Below are positions 1-30,461 of a DNA stretch of 64,000 nucleotides, one piece after another (the stretch's first letter is position 1; each line of letters begins with the position of its first letter). The notes beneath the pieces are model-generated. The model saw only the letters and a list, made by a program, of their open reading frames with translations. It was not told the DNA's origin and did not search any database. The stretch comes from Convolutriloba macropyga (lineage: Eukaryota), in contig NC_134471.1 in NCBI RefSeq assembly GCF_964194025.1, positions 13,702,001 to 13,766,000 of the forward strand. Reading direction: 5' to 3'. A program made the position numbers and the translations under genes.

Positions 1-722
1 CATAATAGCTAAAGTCTACATTATTCTTTTTAACTAAACCCTTTTGCACAATAATTCTATTGTCATTACTAGGATCAATACTAGGCACACACCACGATAT
101 ATCTCTGATATCAATATTACCACCATTACCAACTGCATCAGCACCAGCATTAACTCTAAATAGAGCTCTATCATTATTATTTCTTTTTATTATTATTTTA
201 AATCCTAAACCACATGTAATCTTTTCTAAATCATTTACGAAACCAAATATATATCACTCATCTTAATCATCCTATACAAATGACCTCGTTCTGCAGCAAA
301 ATGGTCACCTTTAAGTCAACTATCTCTATTACCTTGATTTGATTTCTAACAAAACCACTCTCATATTCATCATCAGTACTAGTTAATAACTTATACATCA
401 ATAGATTAGGATGGCAATGATCTATATATTCAATAGTCCTACCACCACTAGTTTCAAGCTTAAGTGAACTAAATAATGCCATTTTACCATAATTAACTAA
501 TCTGATATTAGCATTATCAGCAAATACACCACCAGCATCATCTGATACAACAAACTCTATCTCTAGATATGAATCACGCAAATTTAAATGATTCTCTTCT
601 ATATTGAGTATGATATTAACATTAGTATTTATTGTTTCTAGACTATTTGGTTAGTGCTTTATAATCTTACTTTTGTGTATATCATTTTTATAGCCATAAG
701 TTGTGTCCAAATTAAATTCCAT
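1..722 (-). pseudogene. Polinton major capsid protein, copy 1 (N-terminal part, runs off the window)
   Basis: ATG at 722; DSYLEIEFVV..NYGKMALFSSLKLETSGGRTIEYID; reverse complement of 8855-9569; stop and frameshifts. Confidence 0.8.
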
Positions 723-738
723 TTTTGTAAGTCAAAAA

Positions 739-1613
739 CTGTCCGATAACTTAATTCTAAATGAACTACAAAAGATACATGAAGCGCTAACCAAAACTAA
801 AGAAGAACATACACTTAACTTTAGAATGTGAAAGCCAACAAAAAAATTTAACTTTAGCGAACCTATACTTAACTGGTCAAAATTAGGTTTAATTAGATTA
901 TCTGTTATAATTCGGTGTTTAATGTGGATAGAGGGAACAATCAGTTCTTATATGATACAAAAGGTGAAACATGGTCAGATACCCATATTTTAGCTGTTAT
1001 ACCAGGTGCATATGAATCAATCAAAATAGCAGAATTAATAAAAGAAGAAATTAATGGTAATGTTATAATAGAACCTGATAAGAATACAATGAAAAATTTA
1101 ATGGAAATAAAACAAGGTGCAATTAACTTTGACATAGAAAATTCAATAGCCCCATTACTAGGATTTAGAAAAATAGTTTATAAAAAAGGTAACTATACAT
1201 CTCAGAAAATTGTTGATATTATGGGTTTTAGTACTATTAACATTCATTGTAATCTCATATCTGGTGTTAAAGATAATGGGAATAACACAGACATGCTATA
1301 TATTTTACTCTAACAGAACCACCAGGTTACTTGATAAATATTATACCAACTAATATCTTGTATCAAAATGTAACTAAAGATAGAATAGAATATATAGAGT
1401 TTCATATTAAAGATGAACATGGAAGACCTATAGATTTTAATGGGGATGTATTAAGTGGCGATGTACTTGATAAACATTATACCAACTATTATCTTGAATC
1501 AAAATGTAACTAAAGATAGAATAGAATATATAGAGTTTCATATTAAAGATGAGCATGGAAGACCAATAGATTTTAATGGCGATGTATTAAGTTTTACTTT
1601 ACATTTGATATAA
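739..1613 (+). pseudogene. Polinton minor capsid (penton) protein, copy 1
   Basis: Penton-type C-terminal motifs NIHCNLISG..PPGYLINIIP..IKDEHGRPIDFNGDVLSFTLHLI; start codon is CTG; frameshifts; internal duplication 1328-1456/1464-1592. Confidence 0.8.
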
Positions 1614-1697
1614 ACATAAATATAAATATAAATATAACTATGAATATAACTATAGATATAGATTGATCAATTTGAATTAATATTTCTCCCATAAAAT

Positions 1698-1983
1698 ATG
1701 ATTAGTACTAAATGTGATAGTTGTAAAAATAAACCATGGAGTCAATGTTGTGATTGGTGTTTGGGTAAACCATTCCACTGTTTTATATGTAATAAAAGTG
1801 TAAGAAAAACAAGAACACATGCAATATCATTATTATGATAAAGCGGAGGACATGCTCTGCCATCTGTCAATTTGAAAACGAGTGAAGCTCTTGGTTAACC
1901 AAACAACTTCGTTTAGCAGTTTCACTGATCCTAATTACACATGTAAATCATGTACAAATTATAATAGAAACCCACCACTATAG
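1698..1983 (+). pseudogene. Small Cys-rich / C2H2 zinc-finger protein of the Polinton, copy 1
   Basis: MISTKCDSCKNKPWSQCCDWC..HCFICNKSVR, then after a frameshift KQEHMQYH..TCKSC; mirrored at 7696-7980. Confidence 0.55.
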
Positions 1984-2092
1984 TTATAATTAATTATAAT
2001 TAGATATAATTAGTTACATATATAACATTAGCATAATATTCAATTGCAATCTGTTTTTAAATAGTAGCTTAGTTATTCTCATTTAATTTATA

Positions 2093-3244
2093 CTACAAAA
2101 CTATCCGATCCCAATTAATTCTTAGTTTACCATTAATATTTTTATCTTTAGTTATATCAATGACAATACAATTATAAGGCTATTTCCATACCTTATTACA
2201 TATATTAGCAAAATCATTATAACTAAGTTCAATTTTAATAAAGATATCTTGATGTATCGATGCTAGGACTTTACTTCTCTGTTCAAATAAAAAAAATAGA
2301 TTACAGTTCCCTCTAAAACTCTGCCCATCCAGAGAGAACAGGTTTTGATTAAGATAGATCATATTGCAATTATTATGTCTACCTCTACAAAAGTATTAGT
2401 TAATAACTGGTTCTTTGGCTCTAACATCATCGAATATCATTAGTTTCTTTAAGTCTTTGGATAGTTTATCAGGAGATGGTAAATCTTTTATATCTTTAAT
2501 AAAAATTTAATAACAAATTATCTTTTTAATTGCTTTTGGGTTTTTTCTTTCTAATCCATTGTATTGATCACCACTAGATCCAATGATGTATAGTTTATCA
2601 AAATAAATACTAGCTAGAATTAGTTTTTTTTGATAAAAATGTCTTACCACATTCACCAGGACCAGATATTATACATCTAAATTTATCTGGGAATTCAGCT
2701 TCAGTAATTATATCATCATCATTTAGCCATGATTGTAGATTTTCATTTCTGTTTACATAGATATTGTTACTATGACCTTCTTTGGTGTTAGATTTACCCC
2801 ATTGATAATTTTCATCAAAAAAGTATAAAAAATTATCATTAAAATTATCATTATCATTAACATTAACATTATCATTAACATTATCATTATCATTAACATT
2901 ATCATTATCATTAACATTATCATTACCATTATCATTATCAATATCATTAACATTAACATTGTCATTATCTTTATCATTAACTTTATCTTTAACACTATCA
3001 TTATCTTTATCATTAACATTATCTTTAACAGTATCATTATCTTTATCATTATCATTATAATTATCATTAACATTTTCTTTAACATTATCATTATCAAAAA
3101 CTTTATTAGCAAAACTACTTCGTAGATCATTAACATTATCATTATCATTATCTTTACTACAACCTAAAAAAAACACTCATTATACATCCCCTGATATTTA
3201 CATTGATTAAGTAGAATATTTAAAGCACTTTTATTTCTAAATCT
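2093..3244 (-). pseudogene. Packaging ATPase (A32/FtsK-HerA-like) with upstream in-frame Asp/Asn linker, copy A
   Basis: Walker A GPGECGKT, Walker B LMIFDD, RGRH motif, IYLNQ and NCNLFFLF; frameshifted. Confidence 0.88.
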
Positions 3245-3250
3245 AGGCTC

Positions 3251-6200
3251 TAATGAAAGAAAACAACAACATTATGAACCTTTTTGTGGGGCTTATTGTT
3301 TATACATGATCTGTCTTAATGATAGAGGATTTAGAAATAAAAGTGATTTAAATATTCTAGTTAATCAATGTAAATATCAGGGGATATATAATGAGTGTTT
3401 TTGTTTAGGTTGTAGAAAAGATTTAATGATAATGATAATGTTAATGATCTACGAAGTAGCTTTGCTAATAAAATTATTGATAATGATAAAGTTAATGAAA
3501 ATGTTAAGGATAATTATAATGATTATGATAAAGATAATGATAGTGTTAATGATAATGATAATGCTAATGATAATGATAATGTTAATGATAAAGATAATGT
3601 TAATGATAATGATAATGTTAATGATAATGTTAATGATAATGATAAAGTTAATGATAATGATATTGTTAATGATAATGATAATTTTAAGGATAATGAAAGA
3701 AAACAACAATATTATGAACATTTTTGTGGGGCTTATTGTTTATACATGATCTGTCTTATTGATAGAGAATTTAGAAATAAAAGTGATTTAAATATTCTTG
3801 TTAATCAATGTAAAAATCAGGGGATATATAATGAGTGTTTTTGTTTAGGTTGTAGTAAAGATTTAATGATAATGATAATGTTGATGATCCACGAAGTAGC
3901 TTTGCTAATAAAATTATTTATAATGATAATGTTAATGAAAATGTTAAGGATAATTATAATGTTAATGATAAAGATAATGATAATGTTAATGATAATGATA
4001 ATGATAATGATAAAGATAATGATTTTGTTAAAGATAAAGTTAATGATAATGCTAATGATAATGATAATGTTAATGATAAAGAAAATGTTAATGATAACGA
4101 TAATGTTAATGATAATGTTAATGATAATGATAATGTTAATGATAATGATAATGTTAATGATAATGATAATTTTAATGATAATTTTATATATCTATTTGAT
4201 GAAAAACATCAATGGGGTAAACCTAACAACAAAGAATGTCTTAGTAACAATATCTATGTAAACAAAAATGAAAATCTACAACCATGGCTAAATGATAGTG
4301 ATATAATTACTGAAGCTGAATTCCCAGATAACTTTAGATGTATAATATCTGGTCCTGGTGAATGTGGTAAGACATTTTTATTAAAAAAACTTAAATTAGC
4401 TAGTATATATTTTGATAAACTATACATCATTGGATCTAGTGGTGATCAATACAATGGATTAGAAAGAATAAACCCAAAAGCAATTATAGAAAGATAAATT
4501 TTTATTAAATTTTTATTAAAGATATAAAAGATTTATCATCTCCTGATAAACTAACCAAAGACTTCAAGAAACTAATGATATTCGATGATGTTAGAGCCAA
4601 AGAAACAGTTATTAATGAAAACTTTTGTAGAGGTAGACATAATAATTGCACTATGATCTATCTTAATCAAAACCTGTTCTCTCTGGATGGGCAGAGTTTT
4701 AGAGAGAACTGTAATCTAATTTTTTTTATTTGAACAGAGAGGTAAAGTCCTAGCATCAATATATCAAGATATCTTTAATAATATTGAACTTAGTTATAAT
4801 GATTTTGCTAATATATGTAATAAGGTATGGAAAGAGCCTTATAATTATATTATCATTGATATAACTAAAAATAAAAATATTAATGATAAACTAAAAATTA
4901 ATTGGGATCGGAGAGTTTTGTAGTATAAATTAAATGAGAATAACTAAGCTACTATTTAAAAACAGATTGCAATTAATTATTATGCTAATGTTATATATGT
5001 AACTAATTAATATAGGATTTAGAAATAAAAGTGATTTAAATATTCTAGTTAACAAAATCATTATCTTTATCATTATCATTATCATTATCATTAACATTAT
5101 CATTATCTTTATCATTAACATTATAATCATCCTTAACATTTTCATTAACATTATCATTATCAATAATTTTATTAGCAAAGCTACTTCGTAGATCATTAAC
5201 ATTATCATTATCATTATCTTTACTACAACCTAAACAAAAACACTCATTATACATCCCCTGATATTTACATTGATTAAGTAGAATATTTAAAGCACTTTTA
5301 TTTCTAAATCTAGGCTCTAATGAAAGAAAACAACAATATTATGAACCTTTTTGTGGGGCTTATTGTTTATACATGATCTGTCTTAATGATAGAGGATTTA
5401 GAAATAAAAGTGATTTAAATATTCTAGTTAATCAATGTAAAAATCAGGGGATATATAATGAGTGTTTTTGTTTAGGTTGTAGTAAAGATTTAATGATAAT
5501 GATAATGTTGATGATCTACGAAGTAGTTTTGCTAATAAATTTATTGATAATGATAATGTTAATGAAAATGTTAAGGATAATTATAATGGTAATGATAAAG
5601 ATAATGATAATGTTAATGATAATGATAATGATAATGATAAAGATAATGATTTTATTAAAGATAAAGTTAATGATAAAGATAATGATAATGTTAATGCTAA
5701 TGATAATGCTAATGATAATGATAATGTTAATGATAAAGATAATGTAAATGACAATGATAATGTTAATGATAATGTTAATGATAATGATAAAGTTAATGAT
5801 AATGATATTGTTAATGATAATGATAATTGTAAGGATAATGAAAGAAAACAACAATATTATGAACATTTTTGTGGGGCTTATTGTTTATACATGATCTGTC
5901 TTATTGATAGAGAATTTAGAAATAAAAGTGATTTAAATATTCTAGTTAATCAACGTAAAAATCAGGGGATATATAATGAGTGTTTTTGTTTAGGTTGTAG
6001 TAAAGATTTAATGATAATGATAATGTTGATGATCTACGAAGTAGTTTTGCTAATAAATTTATTGATAATGATAATGTTAATGAAAATGTTAAGGATAATT
6101 ATAATGGTAATGATAAAGATAATGATAATGTTAATGATAATGATAATGATAATGATAAAGATAATGATTTTATTAAAGATAAAGTTAATGATAAAGATAA

Positions 6201-6850
6201 TGATAATGTTAATGCTAATGATAATGCTAATGATAATGATAATGTTAATGATAAAGATAATGTAAATGACAATGATAATGTTAATGATAATGTTAATGAT
6301 AATGATAAAGTTAATGATAATGATATTGTTAATGATAATGATAATTGTAAGGATAATGAAAGAAAACAACAATATTATGAACATTTTTGTGGGGCTTATT
6401 GTTTATACATGATCTGTCTTATTGATAGAGAATTTAGAAATAAAAGTGATTTAAATATTCTAGTTAATCAACGTAAAAATCAGGGGATATATAATGAGTG
6501 TTTTTGTTTAGGTTGTAGTAAAGATTTAATGATAATGATAATGTTGATGATCTACGAAGTAGTTTTGCTAATAAATTTATTGATAATGATAATGTTAATG
6601 AAAATGTTAAGGATAATTATAATGGTAATGATAAAGATAATGATAATGTTAATGATAATGATAATGATAATGATAAAGATAATGATTTTGTTAAAGATAA
6701 AGTTAATGATAATGCTAATGATAATGATAATGTTAATGATAAAGAAAATGTTAATGATAACGATAATGTTAATGATAATGTTAATGATAATGATAATGTT
6801 AATGATAATGATAATGTTAATGATAATGATAATTTTAATGATAATTTTAT
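3251..6850 (+). repeat. Tandem and inverted amplification of a protease-C-terminus + (GATAAT)n unit
   Basis: Unit starts TAATGAAAGAAAACAAC at 3251, 3691, 5318, 5836 and 6354 (periods 440 and 518 bp); inverted piece at about 5048-5311. Confidence 0.9.
3691..4923 (+). pseudogene. Adenain protease C-terminus - DN linker - packaging ATPase, copy B
   Basis: QQYYEHFCGAYCLYMI (C5 protease Gln/Cys motif), then DN repeats, GPGECGKT, LMIFDD, RGRH; stop at 4921-4923; frameshifts. Confidence 0.85.
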
Positions 6851-7586
6851 ATATCTATTTGATGAAAAACATCAATGGGGTAAACCTAACAACAAAGAAT
6901 GTCTTAGTAACAATATCTATGTAAACAAAAATGAAAATCTACAACCATGGCTAAATGATAGTGATATAATTACTGAAGCTGAATTCCCAGATAACTTTAG
7001 ATGTATAATATCTGGTCTTGGTGAATGTGGTAAGACATTTTTATTAAAAAAACTTAAATTAGCTAGTATATATTTTGATAAACTATACATCATTGGATCT
7101 AGTGGTGATCAATACAATGGATTAGAAAGAATAAACCCAAAAGCAATTATAGAAAGATAAATTTTTATTAAATTTTTATTAAAGATATAAAAGATTTATC
7201 GTCTCCTGATAAACTAACCAAGGCTTCAAGAAACTAATGATATTCGATGATGTTAGAGCCAAAGAACCAGTTATTAATGAATACTTTTGTAGAGGTAGAC
7301 ATAATAATTGCAATATGATCTATCTTAATCAAAACCTGTTCTCTCTGGATGGGCAGAGTTTTAGAGAGAACGGTAACCTAATTTTTTTTTATTTGAACAG
7401 AGAGGTAAAGTCCTAGCATCGATATATCAAGATATCTTTATTAATATTAAACTTAGTTATAATGATTTTGCTAATATATGTAATAAGGTATGGAAAGAGC
7501 CTTATAATTATATTATCATTGATATAACTAAAAATAAAAATTTTAATGATAAACTCAGAATTAATTGGGATCGGAGAGTTTTGTAG
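6354..7586 (+). pseudogene. Adenain protease C-terminus - DN linker - packaging ATPase, copy C
   Basis: Near-duplicate of copy B; Walker A reads GLGECGKT. Confidence 0.85.
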
Positions 7587-7695
7587 TATAAATTAAAAGA
7601 GAATAACTAAGCTACTATTTAAAAACAGATTGCAATTAATTATTATGCTAATGTTATATATGTAACTATTTAAATCTAATTATAATTAATTATAA

Positions 7696-7980
7696 CTATA
7701 GTGGGGGGTTTCTATTATATTTTGTACATGATTTAAATGTATAATTAGGATCAGTGAAACTGCTAAACGAAGTTGTTTGGTTAAACACGAGCTTCACTCG
7801 TTTTCAAATTGGCAGATGGCAGAGCATGTCCTCCGCTTTATAATAATAATGATATTGCATGTGTTCTTGTTTTTCTTACACTTTTGTTACATATAAAACA
7901 GTGGAATGGTTTACCCAAACACCAATCACAACATTGACTCCATGGTTTTTTTTACAACTATCACATTTAGTACTAAACTT
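7696..7980 (-). pseudogene. Small Cys-rich / zinc-finger protein, copy 2
   Basis: Reverse complement of 1698-1983; start codon mutated. Confidence 0.5.
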
Positions 7981-8039
7981 ATTTTATGGGAGAAATATTA
8001 TTTCGAATTGATCAATCTATATCTTTAGTTATAATTATA

Positions 8040-8105
8040 GTTATATTTATATTAATATTTATATTTATATTTATATTTATATTTATATTTATATTTATAT
8101 TTATA
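8040..8105. repeat. (TATATT)n hexamer microsatellite between converging Polinton genes
   Basis: Directly visible; longer than its mirror at about 1610-1650. Confidence 0.9.
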
Positions 8106-8838
8106 TCAAATGTAAAGTAAAACTTAATACATCGCCATTAAAATCTATAGGTCTTCCATGCTCATCTTTAATATGAAACTCTATATATTCTATTCTATCT
8201 CTAGTTACATTTTGATACAAGATATTAGTTGGTATAATATTTATCAAGTAACCTGGTGGTTCAGTTAGAGTAAAATATATAGTATGTCTGTGTTATTCCC
8301 ATTATCTTTAACACCAGATGTCACATTACATTGAATGTTAATAGTAATAAAACCGATAATATCGACATATTTCTGATATGTATATTTATCTTTTTTATAA
8401 ACTATTTTTCTAAATCCTAGTAATGGGGCTATTGAATTTTCTATGTCAAATTAATTGCACCTTCTTTTATTTCTATTAAACTCTTCATTGTATTCTTATC
8501 AGGTTCTTTTATAGCATTACCATTAGTTTTTTCTTTTAAAAATTCTGCTATTTCGATTAATTCATATGCACCTGGTATAACAGCTAAAATATGGGTATCT
8601 GACCATGTTTCATCTTGTGTATCATATAAGTAATGATTGTTCCTTCTATTTACATTAAACAGCGAATTATAAACAGATAATCTAATTAAACCTAATTTTG
8701 AGGATTTAAGTATAGGTTTGCTAAAGTTAAATTTTTTGTTGGCTTTCACATTTTAAAGTTAAGTGTATGTTCTTCTTTAGTTTTAGATAGCGTTTCATGT
8801 ATCTTTTGTAGTTCATATAGAATTAAGTTATCGGACAT
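8101..8838 (-). pseudogene. Polinton minor capsid (penton) protein, copy 2
   Basis: ATG at 8838 (MSDNLIL); ORF 8441-8749; C-terminal GRPIDFNGDVLSFTLHLI; disrupted. Confidence 0.8.
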
Positions 8839-8854
8839 TTTTTGACTTACAAAA

Positions 8855-10084
8855 TTGGAATTTAATTTGGACACAACTTATGGCTATAATAATGATATAA
8901 ACAAAAGTAAGATTATAAAGTACAAACCAAATAGTCTAGCAACAATGAGTCTTAATATTAATATCATACTCAATGGAGAACAGAATCATTTAAATTTGCT
9001 TGATTCATATCTAGAGATAGAGTTTGTATTATCAGATGATGCTGGTGGTGTATTTGCTGATAATGCTAATATCAGATTAGTTAATTATGGTATGATGGCA
9101 TTATTTAGTTCACTTAAGCTTGAAACTAGTGGTGGTAGGACTATTGAATATATAGATCATTGCCATCCTAATCTATTGATGTATAATATATTAATTAGTA
9201 CTGATAATGATTATGAGAGTGGTTTTGTTAGAAATCAAGGTAATAGAGATAGTCGACTTAAAGGTGACCATTTTATTGCAGAACGAGTTCATATGTATAT
9301 GATGATTAAGATGAGTGATCTATTTGGAATCGTAAATGATTTAGAAAACATTACATGTGGTTTAGGATTTAAACTAATATTAAAAAGAAATAATAATGAT
9401 AGAGCTCTATTTAGAGTTAATTCTGGTGCTGATGCAGTTGGTAATGATGGTAATATTGATATCAGAGATATATCGTGGTGTGTTCCTAGTATTGATCCTA
9501 GTAATGACAATAGAATTATTGTGCAAAAGAGTTTAGTTAAAAAGAATAATGTAGATTTTAGCTATTATGAAAGAAAGACATTTTATAAGAATGTACCCAA
9601 TGCTACTAACTTCTTGTTTAATCTAGGTATGTAAAGTGGTATGGAAATACCATAATATATAATAGTTGGTTTTGAAAATAATAATGTTAATGAACAAACT
9701 CATGAACAATTTCATATAATGAATGTCACTGAATGTTATTGTAAGATTGGTAGTGAATTTTATCCCGAGGATAGAATGAATATTAATTATGGTACTAATA
9801 TTTATAATGAGGCTTTCAAAGAGATTGATAGCTTTAATAAAGATTATAATGGGTTACCACATAATATAAAACCGTATATAAATCATAGAACAATCAAAAT
9901 TAGTTATAGAATATATGTATTCGATACTAGATATCAAAGTGATCATATAGGACCACAACCAATACAACTTAATTTTAATTTTAGTGCTGCAGTTGCAGAT
10001 GTTATATGTCATGCATTAGTACTAACTAGAAAGGTTATTGGTGTTAATAGTGATGGTAATAATATGTTTGATATAGCCTTGTAG
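8855..10084 (+). pseudogene. Polinton major capsid protein (double jelly-roll), copy 2, full span
   Basis: ORFs 8855-9634 and 9719-10084 are in the same frame, separated by in-frame stops; CKIGSEFYP and RIYVFDTRYQ motifs; about 410 codons; start is TTG. Confidence 0.82.
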
Positions 10085-12211: not shown

Positions 12212-13095
12212 TTAGGACCGTAGGTCTATATTTAATGACTCTATAACTTTATTATTAGATTCAAAGTCAAACTCGGATTTTAATAGTTCCTGTTCGTAGT
12301 ATTTACCTTCTATTATCTTTCCATTAATATCTTCTATTTTATATGTTGGTGGTTGAGTTTTTAGATATTCATTAACTTTAAACAATTCTCTCTTCCAATT
12401 AGAAGTGTAACCTTTAGAGAAGATATTACGTTTATCTGCATTTCTAACATAATCACCAACTTTAAATTTTGGTGTTGCTTTGGTAGATTTAATCTGCGAC
12501 GCAGTTTCACTGATATAGTATTTAAACTTATCGGGATTATTAGAAGCATCAACTGGTGTGGTATTAATTGTTGAATGAATGTTTTTGTTATATGTTATGA
12601 CTGCATCATTTAGTATATTTACCCAATTACCATCGCCAATGATTAACATTGGTTTATTTATTGTGTGTAATATTGTTCTATTAAATCTCTCTATAAATAC
12701 AGCCTTTGAGTCGCTATAAGTAGAATGTAGTTTTCTTTCATATTCTTTAAGTAAAGATTTAAATGTTTTATTGTAAAACTCACTACCTCTATCTACCCAT
12801 AACTTTTCTGGTTTTCTGCTTTCACCTAATACTGTTTTAAAAATATTATTTATAGATAAACATGATTTTTTCTTTTATGGAATAGCCCATGCTTATTTTG
12901 TGAATATATCTATAACAGTTAATATAAACTTATAATTATTATTGTATTTACTTAGAGATAACTTATCAATTAAATCAGCTGACCATGTTTCATCTTTATA
13001 TAATGGTATTATTCTTTCGCTTCTAAATTTGTTATTTGAGGACTGAATACTTCTTTTGCTAATAGTTGCTGTTGTTGTTGTTGTTTTTCAATCAT
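12212..13095 (-). pseudogene. Polinton retroviral-like (DDE) integrase
   Basis: WSADL..LTVIDIFTK..LWVDRGSEFYN..IERFNRT..YNKNIHSTI..FKVGDYVR..FSKGYTSNW..YYEQEL; stops in the N-terminal half. Confidence 0.92.
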
Positions 13096-13098
13096 TAG

Positions 13099-14107
13099 TT
13101 ATTTACCATAGTTAAGAACAAAATTATCTAGTTGCTCTTGATTAATATTATTCATAGATAACAGTTGCTTAGATACATCTAGCATTTCATCATATAATCC
13201 ATCATGACCAGCTTTTGTTTCTAGTATTAATAATTCTAATCTTTCTATTAAACTATTTGGATCTGCGATCAGACTCCGTCTATGGTTATCCAATGAACAT
13301 TGTTCGTGGGAAGCCAAGCAGTTTCCCTGATCGGGAGTGCTAATTAATCCACTACCATATATATCATCTTTCACCCCTATTATACGTTTTATTGCTCTAT
13401 ATCCAGCATTTTTCTTATCCCCTTTTCCTAAATCATATCCAATATTAAATAAAAACCATTTAATTTTGTTTTCATCTTCCTCGATTTCACCATATTTTCG
13501 ATTTGGGTTAGTAAGAAAGTTTATAAACACATCTGAAAATTCATATATATTATCCTTAACAATAAATGCATTTTCTTGATAAATTATTTTAACACCATTC
13601 ATTTCAAATTTAGCGATATCTAAATTTCCGAACTTTAACTTTAATTGAGTTTAGATTGAACTGATCAAACTGTTCAGATTAAATTAATAATTTGAGCTGT
13701 GTCTTTATCTACTAAAAGTCCTGGTTTATCTCCAGCTCCCTCTACAGTTTTGCCATTGGACTTCATTAAAATTTCATTAAACTGGGAGCCAGCTTGCTAG
13801 ATCATCTTAGTTTTTTATCTAACTCTTAATTTTGCCAATCTATTGCCCTTAATGTTTGTTCAATTAATACTAGATTGTGTTCACTGTTCGCATATAAAGT
13901 TTTAGTTAAAGGATCAAAATCTTTAATATTATTTATCAGCGGAGCTGGTTCCCAGATTAAGGCTTCCAATGATTCTTTACTTACATCTAGCCCTAATTTT
14001 ACTATTAGCTCTAAAGTTGTATTATTAATCAGGAAACCTGCTTGGCTTGCCACAGATGAAGTCCGTTCGCAGATTTTATTTAGTAGATCTCTTTTGAAAA
14101 GATACAT
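13099..14107 (-). pseudogene. Conserved Polinton hypothetical protein (C-terminal DPNxLxxRL motif)
   Basis: DPNSLIERLELLILETKAGHDGLYDEM motif typical of Polinton ORFs; split into ORFs 13826-14107 and 13099-13602; the 5' part may be a pPolB C-terminal extension. Confidence 0.55.
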
Positions 14108-14115
14108 GTTTTCAT

Positions 14116-17100
14116 CTAGGGGATAATTTTTATATTATTTACATAAAGTCTTTTATCATCAAAATTACTTAAACTTCTTTTACTTATCTTAATTGTGATC
14201 ATACAACTTCCTACTTTTTGAATCGTGCTTTCCTCTACTATCCTTTCCTTATTATCTTTTAGAGCTCTATAATATTCGTTGTGCTTCCCATTACTTTCTT
14301 TCTTTATTCCTTTCTCTTTTGCCCCATAGTTCTTTATACTATGTTTTGGGTTTCAATACCACGAATTCTTCTATAGCCTTACTACCTAATTCGTGTTTGA
14401 ATTTGCCCGGTACCTTATTATTACTTTTTATTGGTTTATCTAGATTACTCAGATCCATGTGCTCATTGTCGACATTGCCCTCGCTAAAACTTACCACGAA
14501 GCCATCCGTATCCATGTAACATTAGATTTTTAAGCGAGGGATTTAATACAATGTAAAAGAATTTATACATATAAAGCTTACTGAGCTCTAGTACTGTAGA
14601 TCCTAAATAAATTGGCTTATCATATTGTATTTCGTTTTTATAGAATTCTATTAGAGTATAGTTTTCATATCTAATTACATCTTTACATGTTGGTTTACTA
14701 ACAGCTTTAAGTATTTCATAATCATCGGTTAGAATCTTAGCTTCTAGATACTTTAATGGATTCTCACCAATTTTACCAAACAATGAATTATTTATTAACT
14801 TAAATATATCTTTCTCAGGTTCAGTTTTAGCTTCAGCTCTCATTTTAGTATTAATCTCAATGTAATCTCTAATTATATAAACTTGTTTAAATTTAATTAT
14901 TCTATGGACTTTAGTAACCTTTATACCCATTTTAACAACAAACTTTAATATCCGAAAGTGTATTGGGTATCCATATTTATTATTATGGTCTAATATTATT
15001 TTCTTGCTTTTTGATGAAGTTGAGGGTCTTTGTTTGTATCCCAGATCAATATTCTCTACTTCTCTTCCATGGGGTAGTAGTTGAAAGTTTCTAGTTCTCT
15101 CTTTACATTCATTAGTATATTCTAAATCACAGATAAGCCAATAGCCATAATCACTATAATTTGAAGTATGTAACACTTCATCCAGAGTTGTATTGGAGTA
15201 CTCAAAATCTTTATATGGTAGCGTTTGCATTAGTGCATAACCGTAAAAGTTATTGGCATCGATGTACCAGATAGACTTTCCGTCATGCTCTGCCATCTGC
15301 GAAGCAGGTTCCCTGATGGATCTTTGACTCTGACTCTTATTCTGACTTCTAATATACCTATCACCCATAACACCACATATGCCGCCTCTCATTTAACTAA
15401 TGAAGTCTTTTAGTATTTGCTCATCTTGTATTGTGTCTAATTCAACTTTACTTAGTTTAAGGAAACAATCCAAGCTGTAGCTTGGTAGACTAATATAATG
15501 TAGAGGATTGAGTTTATATGTATTCATGTTTAACTTAACAAATAGATTGAAGCAATGTCCTAATATGATTATATCTTTTTCCATATATTCTAATGTTAAT
15601 TCTTTACCTGTTTTATTACTATTAGAAATATTGAAATCATCTACTTCATCTTGAGTTGGTAACTTCGTTGTTGGTGATTATCTAATGTCTTGAATTGATA
15701 GATTACCTAGTTTATTATTATAGCTTTTCTCATCCTTAAAGTATTCATAAGGATATAATGTTTTTTTTATGTTGTAAACCTGTGCTGTTTTATCAAGAGA
15801 CATTGTCAAGACAATGTAACTATCTATAAACTATAATATGCGTACTCTAAACATTCTAGCTTTGCCATTAGTACTAGGCAAGATATCAATTCTTCTCCTG
15901 CTATTATTTTGTTTAAATATCTCATTAAATAATAGATTGAAGTCATAGCCTTTTCCATTATGAAATATTACTGGAATGAAGTTTTGATGTTTATAGTTTA
16001 AATTACGAATATTACATTCTGGGCCTCTATATCTACCTGTTTGCTGACAGTGTTCTCTAACTTTATTAAAACTGTTTTTATTACAAAAGTGACATATATC
16101 ATTAGCATCATGATACAATTTATCTTCTTCTGTGAATAGCATTGCTTTGTTTATCTTAATACTATGTTTTGTTTCTATTTCTAATAAATCTCTAACATAA
16201 TCTTTGATGCAGTCTGGACCAAAGTATGATCTGTTAAGTACTTCATCTTTGCTAAGCACTTCATCTTTGCTATGCCAACTGTAGCCAATAGCAATAAGTA
16301 CATGTTCAGATATCTTATATGTATTGCTAGCAATCTTTTCATCTTTTTTTTGTCATGTAGCATTCAATATCCTTAAATATAACATTATTCACTTCTTGTT
16401 GTTTATGTTGATTCTTGAAATTAATTTGTTTCAACTTAGGACAAACAATCTTTCGTTTGATTTGGACACAGCATTCATGACTTTCATATTTATGTTGAGA
16501 ACTAAACCAATAGGTACAATTATAACAAAACCAGAACTTGGCATGTTTGATGTTAGGTCTTTCTAGTAATAATTCTACATTTTTAATTAGGGCACAGTGT
16601 TCTTCCCTGACTAGGATTCTAACATTTTGTCTATCTTTTACAAAGTTAGAACATTTCTCTAAGCGTTCTACTTTGGCTATGTTACTATCTTGAGCAGGCC
16701 TGTAAAACCAAATGTTGGTATTATATTTATTTTTGATTTTTGTTATATAATCATATGCAGTTTCATTATATTCCCAGTCATCGACTAGATTATTAATATA
16801 CTTATTTTTTCTAGTTGCTTGTTCAGTTACAGGACGCAATCCAGCTGTAATACATAATCGTAGACAGTTAAATTTATTACTTCTAATATTTAAAATCGCT
16901 TTTGGTTTATCTCTTAGACCTGTTGGCAGTTCAGTATAAGATCCTAATGATGGTTTAGTCCTTTCTATCTTTATTTGCATGTCTGTTATTCCAATAAACT
17001 CATAATCGTGGCCGTAACCCTCATACGTTTCTCTAACATGATCAAGCCATTGATTTGAATTCAGTCGATGATCTTTATCCATATATCATCGGTTCCAAAG

Positions 17101-17669
17101 TTTATAATAGTAGTCTTTTCTTCTTCTTAGTCTCTCTTCCTATAGAAGCAATTGGCAGTAACTTTATATTTATATGATTTAAATGGTTCAAACTCGTCTA
17201 ATATGTAATCTACTGGTTCATTAATATCTTTGATAAAACTACCATTAGGTTTAGTAATATATAACTGCCTTTGATTAAAACTTGATTTAATGTTATAATT
17301 ATCGTTTAAGACAACGTTTTCTCTCGAGTGTTTATTCATGTGAGTTTGTAGACCTATCTGATTTTTAAACTTGTCGCCACAAACCCAGCATGGTTCAGTT
17401 TTCGTTTCAATTTCAATTTCAGTTTTAATAATATCCTTAGTTTTAAAGTTATCCTTAGTTTTGGTCTTGGTTTTAAAAATATAATCATTTTCATCTGAGT
17501 TATACACCTTCTCCAAGATTTCTTCTTCTTCAGACTCAAACATTTTCTCCAATAGTTCCTTAGGTTTGAGATCGTATCATTGATACCTGTATAAATTCTT
17601 CTTTGATTCAAAGGATAAATTTCAGACATCGCAGAAGTTTATGACACTAGTATTAGTTGATTGAGACAT
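14116..17669 (-). pseudogene. Protein-primed family B DNA polymerase, copy 1 (full span)
   Basis: N-terminal C2H2 fingers, OTU-like NCLRLCI/EHCALIK, exonuclease DIEC and FHNGKGYD, Endo VII-like C..C..VREHC..TGRYRG, pol motifs YIDANNFYG, KLINNSLFGK, DTDG, KGI, FDDKR. Confidence 0.93.
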
Positions 17670-17949
17670 GATGTATTTATTTAGGGAAAATGTTGGAAAA
17701 AATAATTTTTCGAAAGTGAAAAATGAAGTGAGATAAGTGTAAAAATAAGTCATGGAAAGAATGTTGTAATAATTGTAAAGAATTAGAATATTCTTGTTGT
17801 GTTCATATTTTTACATACACAACAAGAATATTCTAATTTTTTCTAATTATTACAACATTCTTTCCATGACTTATTTTTACACTTATAACACTTCATTTTT
17901 CACTTTCGAAAATTTATTTTTTCTAACATTTTCGCTAAATAAATACATC

Positions 17950-20900
17950 ATGTCTCAATCAACTAATACTAGTGTCATAAACTTCTGTGATGCCTGTAAT
18001 TTATCTTTTGAATCAAAGAAGACTTTATACAGGTATCAATCATACGATGTCAAACATAATGAACTATTGGAGAAAATGTTTGAGTCTGAAGAAGAAGAAA
18101 TCTTGGAGAAGGTGTATAATTCAGATGCAGATGATTATATTATTAAAACTAAGACCAAAACTAAGGATATTATTAAAACTAAGGATATTATTAAAACTGA
18201 ATTGGAAACTGAAACTAAAACTGAACCATGCTGGGTTTGTGGCGACAAGTTTAAAAATCAGATAGGTCCACAAACTCACATGAATTAACACCGGAGAGAA
18301 AACGTTGTCTTAAACGATAATTATAACATTAAATCAAGTTTTAATCAAAGGCAGTTATATATTACTAAATCTAATGGTAATTTTATCAAAGATATTAATG
18401 AATCAGTAGATTACATATTAGATGAGGTTAAACCATTTAAATCATATAAATATAAAGTTACTGCCAATTGCTTATATAAGAAGAGAGACTAAGAAGAAGA
18501 AAAGACTACTAATATAAACTTTAGAACCAATGAATATATGGATAAAGATCATTGACTGAATCCAAACCAATGGCTTGATCATGTTAGAGAAAAGTATGAG
18601 GGTTACGTCCACAATTATGAGTTTATTGGAATAACAGACATGCAAATAAATATAGAAAGGACTAAACCATCAATAGAATCTTATACTGAACTGCCACCAG
18701 TTCTAAGAGATAAAACAAAAGCGATTTTAAATATTAGAAGTAATAAATTTAACTGTCTGCGATTATGTATTACAGCTGCATTGCGTCCTGTAACTGAACA
18801 TGCAACTAGAGAAAATAAGTATATTAATAATCTAGTCGATGACTGGGAATATAATGAAACTGCATATGATTATATAACAAAAATCCAAAAAAAATATATT
18901 ATCAATATTTGGTTTTACAGGCCTGCTCAAGAAAGTAACATAGCCAAAGAAGAACAAAATAGACAAAATGTTAGGACCCTAGTCAGGGACGAACACTGAC
19001 TGTGCCCTAATTAAAAATGTAGAAATATTACTAGAAAGACCTAACACCAAACATGCCAAGTTCTGGTTTTGTCATAATTGTACCTATTGGTTTAGTTCTC
19101 AAAATAAATATGAAAGTCATGAATGCTGTGTCCAAATCAAACCAAAGATTGTTTGTCCTAAGTTGAAACAAATTAAATTCAAGAATCAACATAAACAACA
19201 AGAAGTGAATAATGTTATATTTAGTGATATTGAATGCTACATGAAGGAAACAGATGAAAAGATTGCTAGCGATACATATAAGATGGCATAGCAAAAATGA
19301 AGTGCTTAGCAAAGATGAAGTACATAACAGATCATACTTTGGTCCAGACTGCATCAAAGATTATGTTAAAGATTTATTAGAAATAGAAAAAAAAACATAG
19401 TATTAAGATAAACAAAGCAATGCTATTAACAGAAGAAGATAAATTGTATCATGATGCTAATGATCTATGTCACATTTGTAATAAAAACTGTGTTAATAAA
19501 GTTAGAGATCACTGTCAGCAAACAGGTAGATATAGAGGCCCAGCATGTAATATTTGTAATTTAAACTATAAACATCGAAACTTCATTCCAGTAATATTTC
19601 ATAATGGAAAAGGCTATGACTTCAATCTATTATTTAATGAAATATTTAAACAGAAGAATAGCAGGAGAAGAATTTATATCTTGCCTTGTACTAATGGCAA
19701 AGCTAGAATGTTTAGAGTAGGCGTATTATAGTTTATAGATAGTTACATTGTCTTGACAATGTCTCTTGATAAAATAGGAAATGTTTACAACATAAAAAAT
19801 AAAACATTTTATCCTTATGAATACTTTAAGGATGGGAATAGCCATAATAATAAACTAGGTAATCTATCAATTCAAGACTTTAGATCATCACTAACAACTA
19901 AGTTACCAACTCAAGATGAAGTAGATGATTTTAATATTTCTAATAGTAATAAAACAGGTAAAGAATTAACATTAGAATATATGGAAAATGATATATTCAT
20001 ATTAGGACATTGCTTCAGTCTATTTGTTAAGTTAAACATGAATACATATAATCTCAATCCTCTACATTATATTAGTCTACCAAGCTACAGCTTGGATTGT
20101 TTCCTTAAACTAAGCAAAGTTGAATTAGACACAATACAAGATGAGCAAATACTAAAAGACTTCATTAGTTAAATGAGAGTTGGCATATGTGGTGTTATGG
20201 GTGATAGGTATATTAGAAGTCAGAGTCAGAGTCAGAGTCAAAGATCCATCAGGGAACCTGCTTCGCAGATGGCAGAGCATGACGGAAAGTCTATCTGGTA
20301 CATCGATGCCAATAACTTATACGGTTATGCACTAATGCAAACGCTGCCATATAAAGATTTTGAGTACTCCAATACAACTCTGGATGAAGTGTTAAATACT
20401 TCAGATGATAGTGATTAAGGCTATTGGCTTATCTGTGATTTAGAATATACTAATGAATGTAAAGAGAGAACTAGCAACTTTCAACTACTACCCCATGGAA
20501 GAGAAGTAGAGAATATTGATCTGGGATACAAACAAAGACCCTCAACTCTATCAAAAAGCAAGAAACTAATATTAGACCATAATAATAAATATGGATACCC
20601 AATAAACTGTCGGATGTTAAAGTTTGTTGTTAAGATGGGTATAAAGGTTACTAAAGTCCATAGAATAATTAAATTTAAACAAGTTTGTATAATTAGAGAC
20701 TACAATGATCTTAATACTAAAATGAGAGCTGAAGCTAAAACTGAACCTGAAAAAGATATATTTAAGTTAATGAATATTTGATTGTTTGGTAAAAGTTGTG
20801 AGAATCCATTAAAGTATCTAGAAGCTAAGATTCTAACCGATGATTATGAAATACTTAAAGCTGTTAGAAAACCAACATGTAAAGATGTAATTAGATATGA

Positions 20901-21136
20901 AAACTATACTCTAATAGAATTCTATAAAAAGGAAATACAATATGATAAGCCAATTTATTTAGGATCTACAGTACTAGAGCTCAATAAGCTTCAGATGTAA
21001 AAATTCTTTTATAATGTTTTAAATCCCTCGCTTAAAGATCTAATGTTACACTACATGGATACGGGTAGCTTCGTGATAAGTTTTAGCGATGGCAATGTCG
21101 ACAATGAGCACATGGATCTGAGTAGTCTAGATAAAC
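17950..21136 (+). pseudogene. Protein-primed family B DNA polymerase, copy 2 (3'-truncated mirror image)
   Basis: Reverse complement of about 14440-17669; YIDANNLYG, YMDTGS; breaks off at about 21136. Confidence 0.92.
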
Positions 21137-21316
21137 AAATTCTTTGGTTTGCGCAGAGTGAAATTGTCATCTTGCAGGTTAATTGTGATATTTAAATCCC
21201 GGATTTAAGATAAAATATGAAATTCGTTACCTTATGTATTTTAAAGAAAAAGTGACATTTAACTAAAATTAGTATTACTAATACAGAAGTTTCATTAATG
21301 CTCAAAGGATGTCAGC

Positions 21317-21653
21317 TGTTTATGCTTTTCGGCCTAAATCTTGCATACCAAGATAACTTTTCATTAATATTTGTATTTCTGAAATTCACAACCATGGTAG
21401 CAAGTCAAGCTCTATAAATACATCATAATTCGCGCCATTGGCACACAAGTTGTGCTTAAAAACGGGAAATCCCTTACTATAAATAATATTGAAAGTGAAT
21501 GTCAACCACTTCTGACTTCTTCAATAAAATCAACTTAAATAAATAGCTTTAATGGAAATAGGTTGGGGGAATGGAAATCAGGAAATGAATGGGTTTTGGA
21601 GGACGAAAGTGTAGGTGGTGGAGGAAAATATAAAGGAACTTGGTTCCTTTACA
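21317..21653 (-). repeat. 3' LTR of left Bel/Pao copy
   Basis: 337 bp, preceded on the element strand by CCGGGAG; matches 27638-27980 and 36575-36911. Confidence 0.92.
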
Positions 21654-21745
21654 CTCCCGGCAAGAAAAGGCAACATTTGAAATGAAAATGTAGACACAAT
21701 AAAATAAAGCACAAAAAAGTTTCTTTCTGATATTGAGTTTTTGTT

Positions 21746-21784
<39 letters not shown>

Positions 21785-27637: not shown

Positions 27638-27980
27638 TGTTTATACTCATCGGCCTAAGTCTTGCATACCAAGACAACTTTTCATTAATATTTGTATTTC
27701 TGAAATTCACAACCATGGTAGCAAGTCAAGTTTTATAAATACATCATAACTCGCGCCATTGGCACACAAGTTGTGCTTAAAAACGGGAAACCCCTTACTA
27801 TAAATAATATTGAAAGTGAATGTCAACCACTTCTGACTTCTTCAATAAAATCAACTTAAACAAATAGCTTCAATGGAAATAGGTTGGGTTGGGGGAATGG
27901 AAATCAGGAAATGAATGGGTTTTGGAGGACGAAAGTGTAGGTGGGGGGAGGAAAATATAAAGGAACTTGGTTCCTTTACA
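27638..27980 (-). repeat. 5' LTR of left Bel/Pao copy
   Basis: TGTAAAGG...ATAAACA, followed on the element strand by TTTCTGGCGTATCC. Confidence 0.92.
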
Positions 27981-28095
27981 TCAGCGCTTCTCCGGAGCTG
28001 TTTTCTGGTTCAATCATAAAAATATTTTACTAGACCAGACTGTGCCAAACGATGCGTAATCTTTCAATCGTTATTTTAAAAGGAGAATTCTCGAT

Positions 28096-29210
28096 AGTAG
28101 TAGTAGTAGGAAAAAGTGCTATTCCGCCACTTCCTAATCGGAAGATGACTAAATACCACCTTTTGCCCACTACTCTATATATCTACTACTTGCTTATACC
28201 CCTAATTTATTCACTACTATATATTATCTTGTTTTATCCACTACTACAAGTTACCTTTATATTCACTCAAAATCTATCATTTCTTGTCTCACTCAGTGCA
28301 AACCACTAGTTTCGAGTTAAGCTGGTAACTAACTGTTGTCAGACAGATAGTTCGGGTTCTATCGGTGAAACTGCTTCGCAGATCCCTACTGACTCCAGTG
28401 GACGTATGCCAGATACTAGTATAAAACTAGTGAGACCGTGTAAAAAGCACGTAAAACTAACTTGCGAAAGTTGATGTAACCACTTCGTGGATAACCTGAA
28501 TAAAGAAACCAGCTTAACTCTATAATTTTTAAACTTTTTATAATATTTTGCGAATCACTCTTTAAGAGCGATTCACTCTTATTCGGGTTGATCCCCCAGT
28601 AGAAAGATCGCTCTTTTTCGCTCTTGAAGAGTGATTCCCTCTTTTCTGATATTTATTTTATTTATTTAAACTTTTTTTTCAAATTATCACCACTCTTCAA
28701 TAAGTTTATATTTTCTTTTACTTTTTCTATATTTAACCCATTATTAATAAGAAATGATACAAAATTATAATATTTACACGAACAACTTTCCTCAATTTGG
28801 CTATTAACTGAAGGACTCACAGTCTTGCTTTGTCAACTAGTATTAATTGTTTTCTGACTCAAATCAGTGTAAGGATCTTCGGTCTTGGTTCCCCAACTGC
28901 TTGGCTTGCCACGGACGTCGTCCATTCGCAGATTTCTACTAAATACTAAATCCTCTAGTTAATTCTACATCTGGATGTTGTTTCTTTACATGAGCCCGTA
29001 TTTCATAATATCTCACAACAGAAGTACAATATGGACAATTAACTTTAGCTGAAGTACAACTTCTACAAGTATCCTTACTCTCATCAAAATCAGTTACTGG
29101 TTTTACATAATTACATTTATTACAACTTCTAATAAAGACTTCTGGGTTAAGATTAGGGTTAGGGTTAGGCTTAAGTTTAAGGTTAGGGTTAAGGTTAGGG
29201 TTAGGGTTAG
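28096..29210 (+). mobile_element. Polinton terminus (terminal repeat region and adjacent zinc-finger ORF), left arm
   Basis: Begins AGTAGTAGTAGTAG, the typical Polinton 5' end; shares the 23-bp hairpin motif with the internal Polinton genes. Confidence 0.8.
28650..29210 (-). pseudogene. Zinc-finger protein with N-terminal (Asn-Pro)n tract, left copy
   Basis: NPNPNLNP..RSCNKC..TCRSC..NCPYC..HVKKQH; true N-terminus lost at the fold-back. Confidence 0.6.
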
Positions 29211-29305
29211 CCCTTAACCCAACCCTAACCTTAACCCTAACCCTAACCCTAACCTTAACCATAACCCTAACCTTAACCTTAAGCCTAACCCTAACCCTAA
29301 TCTTA
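29146..29305. repeat. Head-to-head telomere-like tract (TTAGGG)n then (CCCTAA)n
   Basis: About 11 degenerate TTAGGG/TTAAGG units up to 29210, then about 15 CCCTAA/CCTTAA units. Confidence 0.9.
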
Positions 29306-30346: not shown

Positions 30347-30461
30347 ATTGAAAATTCTCCTTTTAAGATAAAGATTGAAAGATTACGCCTCGTTTCGCAC
30401 AGTCTGGTCTAGTAAAATATTTTTATGTTTGAACCAGAAAACAGCTCCGGAGAAGCGCTGA

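What the first reader, a model, noticed from the sequence alone, without database searches (positions are those of the whole stretch)
2093..3420. Apparent natural fusion: adenain protease - Asp/Asn linker - packaging ATPase
Seen: plus-strand units read QQYYEHFCGAYCLYMICLIDREFRNKSDLNILVNQCKNQGIYNECFCLGCSK without a stop. The minus-strand copies (ORFs 2610-3176 and 5045-5254) continue LGCSK-DNDNDN in frame, and 2610-3176 runs through about 110 D/N/V/K residues to Walker A GPGECGKT with no internal Met. The plus copies carry a TT insertion (AAAGATTTAAT) that shifts this frame. Known: the C5 maturation protease and the A32-like ATPase are usually separate Polinton genes. Inference: this family encodes one polypeptide coupling maturation and packaging through a variable-length acidic linker, possibly self-cleaved. 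Caveat: the protease N-terminal half (His/Asp) is not in the window.
Basis: partly seen in the sequence, partly recalled or inferred. Interest (0 to 1): 0.7.

Follow-up and report, generated by a model that had tools for sequence, protein, structure and literature searches.

The report
Polinton protease fused to packaging motor
These are broken, reshuffled copies of a gene from a virus-like Polinton element in a eukaryotic genome; intact relatives show that this family makes its capsid-maturation protease and its DNA-packaging ATPase, normally separate proteins, as one chain joined by a long flexible spacer.

Summary
Window 1-21140 is a decayed, fold-back-rearranged Polinton/Maverick (pPolB, DJR capsid, probable integrase) with seven partial copies of the gene, none with protease residues 1-97. 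Searches found 29 full-length single ORFs (440-548 aa) among 206 fetched relatives. Each has a ~156-aa His-Asp-Gln-Cys protease, a 74-174-aa Asp/Asn linker and a ~210-aa A32-type ATPase; the largest cluster has 63 members. Of 210 relatives reaching the protease end, 179 continue in the Asp/Asn frame and 18 stop early at scattered places. Divergent members have 38-54-aa non-repetitive linkers, so the repeat looks secondary. Self-cleavage is not supported: 0 of 29 carry an adenain site. A four-cysteine cluster caps the protease. No fused form appeared outside the family in the top 150 of 2397 profile hits or in nine paper searches. Best reading: an uncut, tethered protease-ATPase whose spacer sequence hardly matters. 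Adenain identity rests on motifs and language-model features; Pfam and the low-confidence folds did not confirm it. New variant of a known kind; interest 0.5.

The parts
2096..2741 (-). A32-type ATPase domain, minus copy; frame broken just after Walker A (about 2625-2638) and again further on
   Evidence: tblastn of P0127 ATPase domain, 79-85% identity; ORFs 2610-3176, 2507-2668 and 2180-2395
2742..3152 (-). Asp/Asn hexamer-repeat linker plus the non-repetitive linker part, in frame with LGCSK and with Walker A
   Evidence: 166 codons with no stop and no Met from LGCSK to Walker A; 6-bp tandem array 2832-3096
3153..3242 (-). Last ~30 codons of the protease; frame broken in the T-run near 3173-3180; begins at a fold-back junction
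3234..3419 (+). Protease C-terminal fragment (residues ~98-157, with Gln and catalytic Cys at 3285); linker out of frame after it
   Evidence: 72% identity to P0127
3420..3691 (+). Truncated Asp/Asn linker, joined by a tandem-duplication junction to the next protease fragment
   Evidence: ORF 3416-4261; 440-bp tandem repeat 3251-4135
3692..3859 (+).
   Evidence: 74% identity to P0127; query
3860..4272 (+). Full-length linker, 2 nt out of frame with the protease fragment, in frame with the ATPase
   Evidence: distance LGCSK to Walker A 500 nt
4273..4923 (+). A32-type ATPase domain (Walker A at 4360), broken near 4495-4512 and near 4730
   Evidence: Pox_A32 E 0.0095 on 4509-4730; query
5045..5309 (-). 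Only copy in frame across the protease-linker junction (FRNK...LGCSK-DNDN); lacks the catalytic Cys, cut within the linker
   Evidence: ORF 5045-5338
5301..6354 (+). Two tandem units of protease fragment plus truncated linker (CGAYC at 5352 and 5870)
   Evidence: neighbouring units 99% alike
6355..7586 (+). Protease fragment (6355-6522), linker, ATPase (6936-7586, several breaks); this copy adjoins the rest of the element
8101..8752 (-). Broken ORF in the position of a minor capsid (penton) gene; identity not confirmed
   Evidence: ORFs; no Pfam hit; inference from position and size
8846..10084 (+). Double-jelly-roll major capsid gene, broken (an inverted partial copy lies at 2-650)
   Evidence: PF21738 29.3 bits on 9656-10081, above the 27 cut-off; 17.8 bits on 8846-9631
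12212..12874 (-). Probable retroviral-type integrase fragment
   Evidence: rve only E 0.21; DxGSEF and ERFNRT motifs, read as rve from recall
14116..17085 (-). [quoted passage not shown]
   Evidence: PF03175 32 bits on 19732-20169, above the 25.8 cut-off

Best explanation
The window holds dead, rearranged remnants of one gene of a high-copy Polinton/Maverick family in a eukaryotic genome. In intact family members the gene is one ORF: adenain/Ulp1-type cysteine protease (~156 aa, closed by a four-Cys cluster, probably a zinc site), then a disordered acidic spacer (38-174 aa or more), then the A32/FtsK-type packaging ATPase (~210 aa). SHOWN: single ORF, intact catalytic motifs, no conserved stop, start or adenain site between the domains, free variation of spacer length and sequence. 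INFERRED: the protein is made and used uncut. The ATPase oligomerises and docks at a capsid vertex as A32-type motors are held to do (recalled), so each subunit carries a protease on a long leash to the assembling particle at fixed 1:1 ratio. The spacer only keeps the domains out of each other's way; its Asp/Asn repeat grew later by slippage of a stop-free hexamer. The fusion probably arose by joining of two adjacent co-oriented morphogenesis genes.
For: 29 full-length fused ORFs among 206 fetched proteins; 61 of the 114 hits to a protease-only query also contain ATPase sequence. The largest cluster among the 114 (P0062, 63 members) is the full fusion. 179 of 210 proteins that reach the protease end go on in the Asp/Asn frame, 9 in other sequence, 4 in the Met/Ile frame, and 18 stop within 8 residues at varied places. 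His67, Asp83, Gln108, Cys114, Walker A Gly/Gly/Lys, Walker B Asp-Asp and two Arg are invariant: 11 of 13 key residues against 126 of 353 other columns, P 5.5e-4; same-letter control 39 of 110, P 8.7e-4. Linker 74-174 aa, 45% Asn+Asp, net charge -5 to -31, while the domains stay 89-90% identical. Short non-repetitive linkers of 54, 38 and 54 aa in P0213, P0219 and P0324. No adenain motif in 29 of 29 (motif as given in passages of PMC7464072 and 10.1101/341131). The fourth Cys sits at one place in 143 of 171 proteins, two residues later in 21, at both in 1 and at neither in 6; the C-x-C-x2-C trio is whole in 147 of 163. Protease domain scores 0.96 to Peptidase_C5 clusters in the ESM Atlas. The ATPase aligns with relatives of which 10 of 15 pass the Pox_A32 cut-off.
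Against: All support for the ORF comes from gene calls on genomic contigs; no RNA or protein data, so splicing or processing is not excluded. Cluster P0097 (152 aa, protease only, 52 members) could be a real unfused or stop-carrying subfamily; its members could not be listed. The relatives are closely related (89-90%) and mostly differ by private changes (260 singleton against 84 shared variants), so counts are not independent, and choosing full-length ORFs favours young copies. Pfam gives no Peptidase_C5 hit (0 of 29); Peptidase_C48 is only E 0.027 in 2 of 4 protease-only proteins. The specificity of this divergent protease is unknown, so lack of the adenain motif does not prove lack of cleavage; 10 of 29 linkers contain a GG. 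The window's own capsid ORFs show no canonical adenain site either, so there is no internal positive control except one weak candidate in ORF 13099-13650. The shifted Cys may be a single inherited event. Vertex docking and tethered action were not tested.
Confidence: 0.55

Rival explanations
1. Polyprotein: one ORF, but the protease (or a host protease) cuts it at a non-canonical site near the start of the linker, releasing free protease and ATPase. The fusion would only fix the ratio and timing of the two enzymes.
For: The N-terminal domain is an endopeptidase with intact catalytic residues. Polinton pPolB is proposed to be cut by its own vOTU domain (passages of PMC11161782). One subfamily has SRGG right after the Cys cluster, and 10 of 29 linkers contain GG. 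Distant ATPases P0289, P0320 and P0342 are joined to a downstream domain through Gly-rich stretches.
Against: 19 of 29 linkers have no GG and none has an adenain motif. The residues after the Cys cluster vary freely. No conserved candidate site is shared by long- and short-linker members apart from an IY(L/Q)F..E-K-type core (129 of 159), which has no Gly.
Confidence: 0.22
2. Tolerated accident: two adjacent genes became joined, the former intergenic DNA became a stop-free microsatellite, and the tether has no role in assembly. The element may move mostly as a transposon.
For: The AATGAT-type hexamer is open in two of three frames and slips in steps of six, so length change keeps frame without selection. 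ATPase and protease genes are neighbours in mavirus-type virophages (passage of PMC8547959). The same short peptide words that fill the linker also sit as in-frame inserts inside both enzyme domains.
Against: Catalytic residues of both domains are more conserved than the rest. The fusion is kept in divergent members with non-repetitive linkers, and the element keeps capsid genes. This rival differs from the best reading only in whether the tether matters.
Confidence: 0.15
3. Two products from one genomic ORF: the linker is wholly or partly an intron, or a sizeable subfamily ends the protease with a stop and makes the ATPase separately.
For: Eukaryotic host; no RNA seen. P0097 (protease only) stands for 52 members, P0059 for 16 and P0084 for 12. 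40 of 206 fetched proteins are ATPase-only gene calls.
Against: The 18 early ends fall at many different positions, as expected from decay in a T-rich run. The ATPase-only calls start at scattered points inside the linker, many of them where full-length relatives have Leu or other residues (reading these as alternative-start calls is inference). There is no Met in the ATPase frame over 166 codons in 3 of 3 window copies. 61 of 114 hits keep one frame from protease into ATPase despite decay.
Confidence: 0.06
4. The apparent fusion is a local product of the window's rearrangements or of assembly error.
For: The region is full of fold-backs and tandem duplications, and no single window copy holds both the catalytic Cys and Walker A in one frame.
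Against: 29 full-length natural ORFs, from different database clusters, have the same order and junction. The arms differ mostly by substitutions rather than by indels.
Confidence: 0.02

Closest known systems
Polinton/Maverick (adintovirus; Polintoviricetes) morphogenesis module: PRO/adenain (vUlp1) and A32/FtsK packaging ATPase
   Same: Same two enzymes, in an element with pPolB, DJR major capsid and a probable rve integrase. Protease motif order His-Asp-Gln-Cys; ATPase with Walker A/B and the RGRH and YxxQ motifs shared with Pox_A32-positive relatives.
   Different: In the passages read, PRO and ATPase are separate genes: on opposite strands in vertebrate Mavericks (PMC8097293), and with separate length cut-offs of 110 and 190 aa in nematodes (PMC10748475). 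Here they are one 440-548-aa ORF. The nearest outside ATPase, P0237 (48% identity, 200 aa), stands alone with its own Met.
Adenovirus protease (adenain, Peptidase_C5)
   Same: Catalytic residue order, size and language-model features (0.96; clusters of 143-163 aa with 12-62% of members carrying PF00770).
   Different: No Pfam C5 hit. Adenain is a free protein activated by a thiol bond to the pVIc peptide (passage of PMC7464072). This one ends in its own four-Cys cluster and is tied to an ATPase.
Mavirus-type virophage gene order MV14-ATPase-PRO-PEN-MCP
   Same: ATPase and protease genes are direct neighbours (passage of PMC8547959).
   Different: Separate genes, in the opposite order (ATPase first).
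Hexain (hexon-adenain) and Cahain fusions of Buck et al. 2024 (PMC11071296)
   Same: A papain-like maturation protease joined to another virion protein (passages; Hexain entries in supplement file 2).
   Different: The partner is a capsid protein, not the packaging ATPase; Hexain is described as potential and linked to frameshifting.

Membership tests
Polinton/Maverick element | [quoted passage not shown] | tested here: met
   PF03175 32 bits, cut-off 25.8, on 19732-20169; gene broken
Polinton/Maverick element | [quoted passage not shown] | tested here: met
   PF21738 29.3 bits, cut-off 27, on 9656-10081; gene broken
Polinton/Maverick element | Retroviral-type (rve) integrase | tested here: inconclusive
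   rve E 0.21, far below cut-off; motifs in ORF 12212-12874 fit from recall
Polinton/Maverick element | Minor capsid (penton) gene | tested here: inconclusive
   Candidate ORFs at 8101-8752 and 897-1613 have no relevant Pfam hit
Polinton/Maverick element | Terminal inverted repeats and 6-bp target duplication | not testable with these tools
   One end is outside the window or lost, the other is cut within pPolB at about 21140; no DNA of intact relatives could be fetched
Adenain / Peptidase_C5 (clan CE) | His...Asp...Gln-x5-Cys catalytic set in this order | tested here: met
   His67, Asp83, Gln108, Cys114 invariant in 29 of 29 full-length relatives; the window itself holds only Gln and Cys
Adenain / Peptidase_C5 (clan CE) | Score above the Pfam PF00770 cut-off | tested here: not met
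   0 of 29 at E up to 0.1; 0 of 4 protease-only proteins at E up to 10. So it is filed as adenain-like, not as a PF00770 member; ESM Atlas neighbours are clusters in which only 12-62% of members carry PF00770
Adenain / Peptidase_C5 (clan CE) | Adenain/Ulp1 fold | tested here: inconclusive
   Both models are of low confidence (mean pLDDT 39.6 and 37.8)
Adenain / Peptidase_C5 (clan CE) | Cleavage at (M/I/L)xGG-x or (M/I/L)xGx-G | not testable with these tools
   Needs an assay; no such site in the fusion itself
A32/FtsK-type packaging ATPase (Pox_A32) | Walker A, Walker B, conserved Arg and Gln motifs | tested here: met
   GxxxxGK and DD and two Arg invariant in 29 of 29, Gln in 27 of 29; the two invariant columns of the 28-sequence alignment with distant relatives are Arg
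A32/FtsK-type packaging ATPase (Pox_A32) | Score above the Pfam PF04665 cut-off | tested here: met
   Family member P0157 28.6 bits, cut-off 22.8. Most members fall short: 10 of 29 at E up to 0.1. 10 of 15 distant relatives pass. ESM Atlas 0.85, a lead only. Best Foldseek hit a Klosneuvirus packaging ATPase, E 7.9e-4, from a poor model
Self-cleaving viral polyprotein | Conserved cleavage site between the domains | tested here: not met
   0 of 29 with an adenain motif, 10 of 29 with any GG in the linker; non-canonical sites not testable

The most novel reading that the evidence does not exclude
In this Polinton family the packaging motor physically carries the maturation protease: each ATPase subunit at the packaging vertex holds a protease on an acidic leash. 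The acidic linker may act as a DNA mimic that holds the protease back until DNA is pumped in, and the four-Cys cap may replace the external activating peptide used by adenovirus. That would be a single-chain package-and-mature machine not found in the papers searched for any jelly-roll DNA virus.
Probability: 0.25. Interest if true: 0.72.

Novelty: new variant of a known kind. Interest (0 to 1): 0.5.

Why it matters
How Polintons and related jelly-roll DNA viruses coordinate genome packaging with proteolytic maturation is open; passages read state that Maverick-Polinton virions have not been observed (10.64898/2026.06.19.733378; PMC10748475). A natural, high-copy family that keeps both enzymes on one chain implies that they can work in the same place or are released from one precursor. 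It supplies one natural protein in which cleavage, activation by DNA and ATPase oligomerisation can be assayed together. It also warns annotators: Pfam misses the protease entirely and mostly misses the ATPase, so such genes look like low-complexity junk. The window locus itself is only a fossil.

Tried and rejected
Structure. AlphaFold2 of the full fusion (29 rows) gave mean pLDDT 39.6 and of the protease alone (110 rows) 37.8. VIA-align found nothing at Z 8 or more, and Foldseek on the protease model nothing at E 0.001 or better. These say nothing for or against the fold. Sequence searches of the PDB gave no relevant hit for the fusion or the protease and only P-loop matches for the ATPase. 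PHROGs gave only weak terminase/ATPase matches. The bacterial and archaeal genome collection holds no relative (615 pattern matches, none confirmed). A search with the divergent member P0315 returned 3 proteins of 37 candidates, all family. A protease-domain tree of 33 rows was mostly unresolved (6 of 29 inner branches well supported), so it cannot show that short linkers came first; it does place the protease-only P0097 among fused members (97/89, with P0088 and P0127). Assembly-chimera origin of the fold-backs was considered and rejected on the substitution pattern. A general hairpin enrichment is slight (2 observed against 0.06 expected in 11.4 kb). Literature: nine searches and term searches inside 15 papers found no protease-ATPase fusion. 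Only passages were seen, not whole texts: PMC11161782, PMC3671162, PMC8502044, 10.64898/2026.10.13.758929, 10.64898/2026.06.19.733378, PMC11957031, PMC10748475, PMC8097293, 10.1101/341131, PMC11131425, PMC12220804, PMC12721341, PMC8547959, PMC11071296, PMC7464072. Supplements of PMC11071296 (6 files searched, at least one cut, 3 too large to read) and of PMC8502044 (1 file) had no such label or family motif. bioRxiv supplements, Repbase, the original 2006-2007 Polinton papers and the mavirus protease paper (PMC6048507) were not seen and may bear on novelty. Left unchecked: the make-up of the clusters behind P0062 and P0097, the 2247 lower-ranking profile hits, the 105 unlisted hits, and viral and metagenome contig collections.
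Full report
Setting. Window 1-21140 is AT-rich (21-32% GC) and holds a decayed Polinton/Maverick: pPolB (PF03175 above cut-off), a double-jelly-roll capsid gene (PF21738 above cut-off), a probable integrase (rve E 0.21) and the gene in question. The rest of the window carries BEL/Pao-, LINE- and Gypsy-like retroelement remains (class names partly from recall), so the host is a eukaryote, probably an animal; it was not identified. The region is rearranged by fold-backs and tandem duplications: 1-3242 mirrors 6432-9569, and 14430-21140 is a palindrome. The arms differ by 4-8%, mostly substitutions with few indels, which fits real duplication and decay.

Check of the observation. Five plus copies carry the protease C-terminal third with CGAYC, and all five are 2 nt longer than the two minus copies right after LGCSK/LGCRK, so their linker is out of frame. 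The only copy in frame across the junction (5045-5338) is cut within the linker. Protease residues 1-97 are absent from the whole window. The window alone therefore gives only a composite hint.

Relatives settle the fusion. The 56-residue protease fragment found 114 longer proteins among 116 candidates, and 61 of the 114 also contain ATPase sequence. The ATPase piece found 225, of which 120 were listed. Of the 206 fetched, 113 have both domains, 53 protease only and 40 ATPase only; 29 cover more than 90% of both domains in one ORF of 440-548 aa. The largest cluster among the 114, P0062 with 63 members, is such a full fusion. After the profile search, 210 of 343 fetched proteins reach the end of the protease. 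Of these, 179 continue in the Asp/Asn frame, 9 in other sequence, 4 in the Met/Ile frame seen in the window's plus copies, and 18 stop within 8 residues at varied positions. The plus copies thus carry the minority state. Against this: the protease-only P0097 stands for 52 members, P0059 for 16 and P0084 for 12, and those clusters could not be opened. P0097 groups with fused members in the tree. All records are gene calls on genomic contigs and are close kin, so the counts are not independent.

Anatomy. Protease, about 156 aa: His67, Asp83, Gln108 and Cys114 are invariant in 29 of 29. Pfam gives no Peptidase_C5 hit, but ESM Atlas features place it at 0.96 beside 143-163-aa Preplasmiviricota clusters in which 12-62% of members carry PF00770. 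It ends in C-x-C-x2-C, whole in 147 of 163 proteins. A fourth Cys lies either nine residues before the trio (143 of 171) or two residues further on (21), almost never at both (1) or neither (6). I read this as a zinc-binding cap; that is inference, and the shift may be one event. ATPase, about 210 aa: Walker A, Walker B and the Arg and Gln motifs are kept. One member passes the Pox_A32 cut-off, as do 10 of 15 distant relatives. Key residues are more often invariant than others (11 of 13 against 126 of 353, P 5.5e-4), which suggests that the family was under selection while fused, though 260 of 344 variants are private, as in post-insertion decay. Linker: 74-174 aa, 45% Asn+Asp, net charge -5 to -31, Met in only 6 of 29. 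P0213, P0219 and P0324 have 54-, 38- and 54-aa linkers without the repeat, and P0315 runs about 25 residues from the protease to a Walker-A-like stretch. An IY(L/Q)F..E-K-type core is found in 129 of 159 proteins that reach the ATPase start. So the fusion does not need the repeat. That the short form is older is likely but was not shown by the tree.

Mechanism. No full-length member has an adenain site, [MIL]xGG or [MIL]xGxG (motif from passages of PMC7464072 and 10.1101/341131), and 19 of 29 linkers lack even GG. I therefore favour an uncut two-domain protein (0.55): the ATPase oligomer at the packaging vertex (recalled property of A32-type motors) carries the protease on a flexible leash at 1:1 ratio, and the spacer's sequence matters little. 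Rivals: cutting at a non-canonical site (0.22), a tolerated accident without functional coupling (0.15), splicing or a separate-gene subfamily (0.06), local artefact (0.02). The claim that the family encodes a single ORF, apart from how it works, I put at about 0.92. The two structure models were too poor to help; the best Foldseek hit of the full model was a viral packaging ATPase at E 7.9e-4.

Range and novelty. The profile of the fusion hit 2397 of 1.84 billion representatives; the best 150 were listed. Fourteen carry both domains, all of this family. The 15 outside relatives under 45% identity are ATPases with no protease signal, and the nearest outside ATPase, P0237, stands alone. The ESM Atlas showed only 219-309-aa clusters for the whole protein, but it covers only clusters of 50 or more. 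Nine paper searches and term searches in 15 papers and two supplement sets found no protease-ATPase fusion. The closest precedents are adjacent ATPase and PRO genes in mavirus and hexon-adenain fusions. Repbase and several supplements were not seen.

Verdict. A real, apparently undescribed and lineage-restricted rearrangement of the known Polinton morphogenesis module, seen here only as a fossil: new variant of a known kind, interest 0.5. The boldest reading not excluded, a single-chain machine in which the motor carries and perhaps gates the protease, has probability about 0.25 and would merit about 0.72.

Noticed in passing
window 1-9569, 2867-3695, 5049-5658, 14430-21140, 21135-37094, 27779-30663: Dense nested fold-back (inverted) duplications at 84-96% arm identity, cutting across the Polinton and a BEL/Pao element alike; the junctions near 3246 and 5314 are the same, so one was copied from the other. 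Suggests a host process such as template switching or breakage-fusion-bridge.
   Followed up: partly
window 6552, 15299, 13302, 28375-30068; relatives P0021, P0084, P0087, P0157: Short words (LRSSFAN, QGTCFAD, PASQ, ASHEQ, QRSG) recur as in-frame inserts in the linker, inside the protease and ATPase of relatives, and in the window's pPolB and other ORFs; some carry a C-GAA-G mini-hairpin. They may be tiny mobile palindromic inserts tolerated in coding DNA.
   Followed up: partly
P0289, P0320, P0342 (distant hits); window 13099-13650: In other lineages the packaging ATPase is joined at its C-terminus, after a Gly-rich stretch, to a small domain that resembles the end of window ORF 13099-13650 (33% over 48 aa, E 1e-4 with P0289; not significant with P0342). 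ATPase fusions may recur among Polintons; single records, could be read-through calls.
   Followed up: partly
P0330, P0341: A32-type ATPases joined to C2H2 zinc fingers.
   Followed up: no
window 15831-16352 and 19387-19731: An Endonuclease VII-like domain (30.5 bits, cut-off 23.6) lies within the N-terminal part of the pPolB gene.
   Followed up: no
window 28939-29490: A palindromic unit with a GGGTTA/TAACCC telomere-like repeat inside an ORF that ends in zinc-finger-like Cys/His motifs.
   Followed up: no
window 58001-59826: A 913-bp direct duplication in a Gypsy-like element with no substitutions and one 2-nt indel; very recent or an assembly duplicate.
   Followed up: no
window 3691, 5836, 6354: Tandem-duplication junctions join the linker repeat to the protease at a shared TAATGA stretch, suggesting that the linker repeat promotes the rearrangements.
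   Followed up: partly
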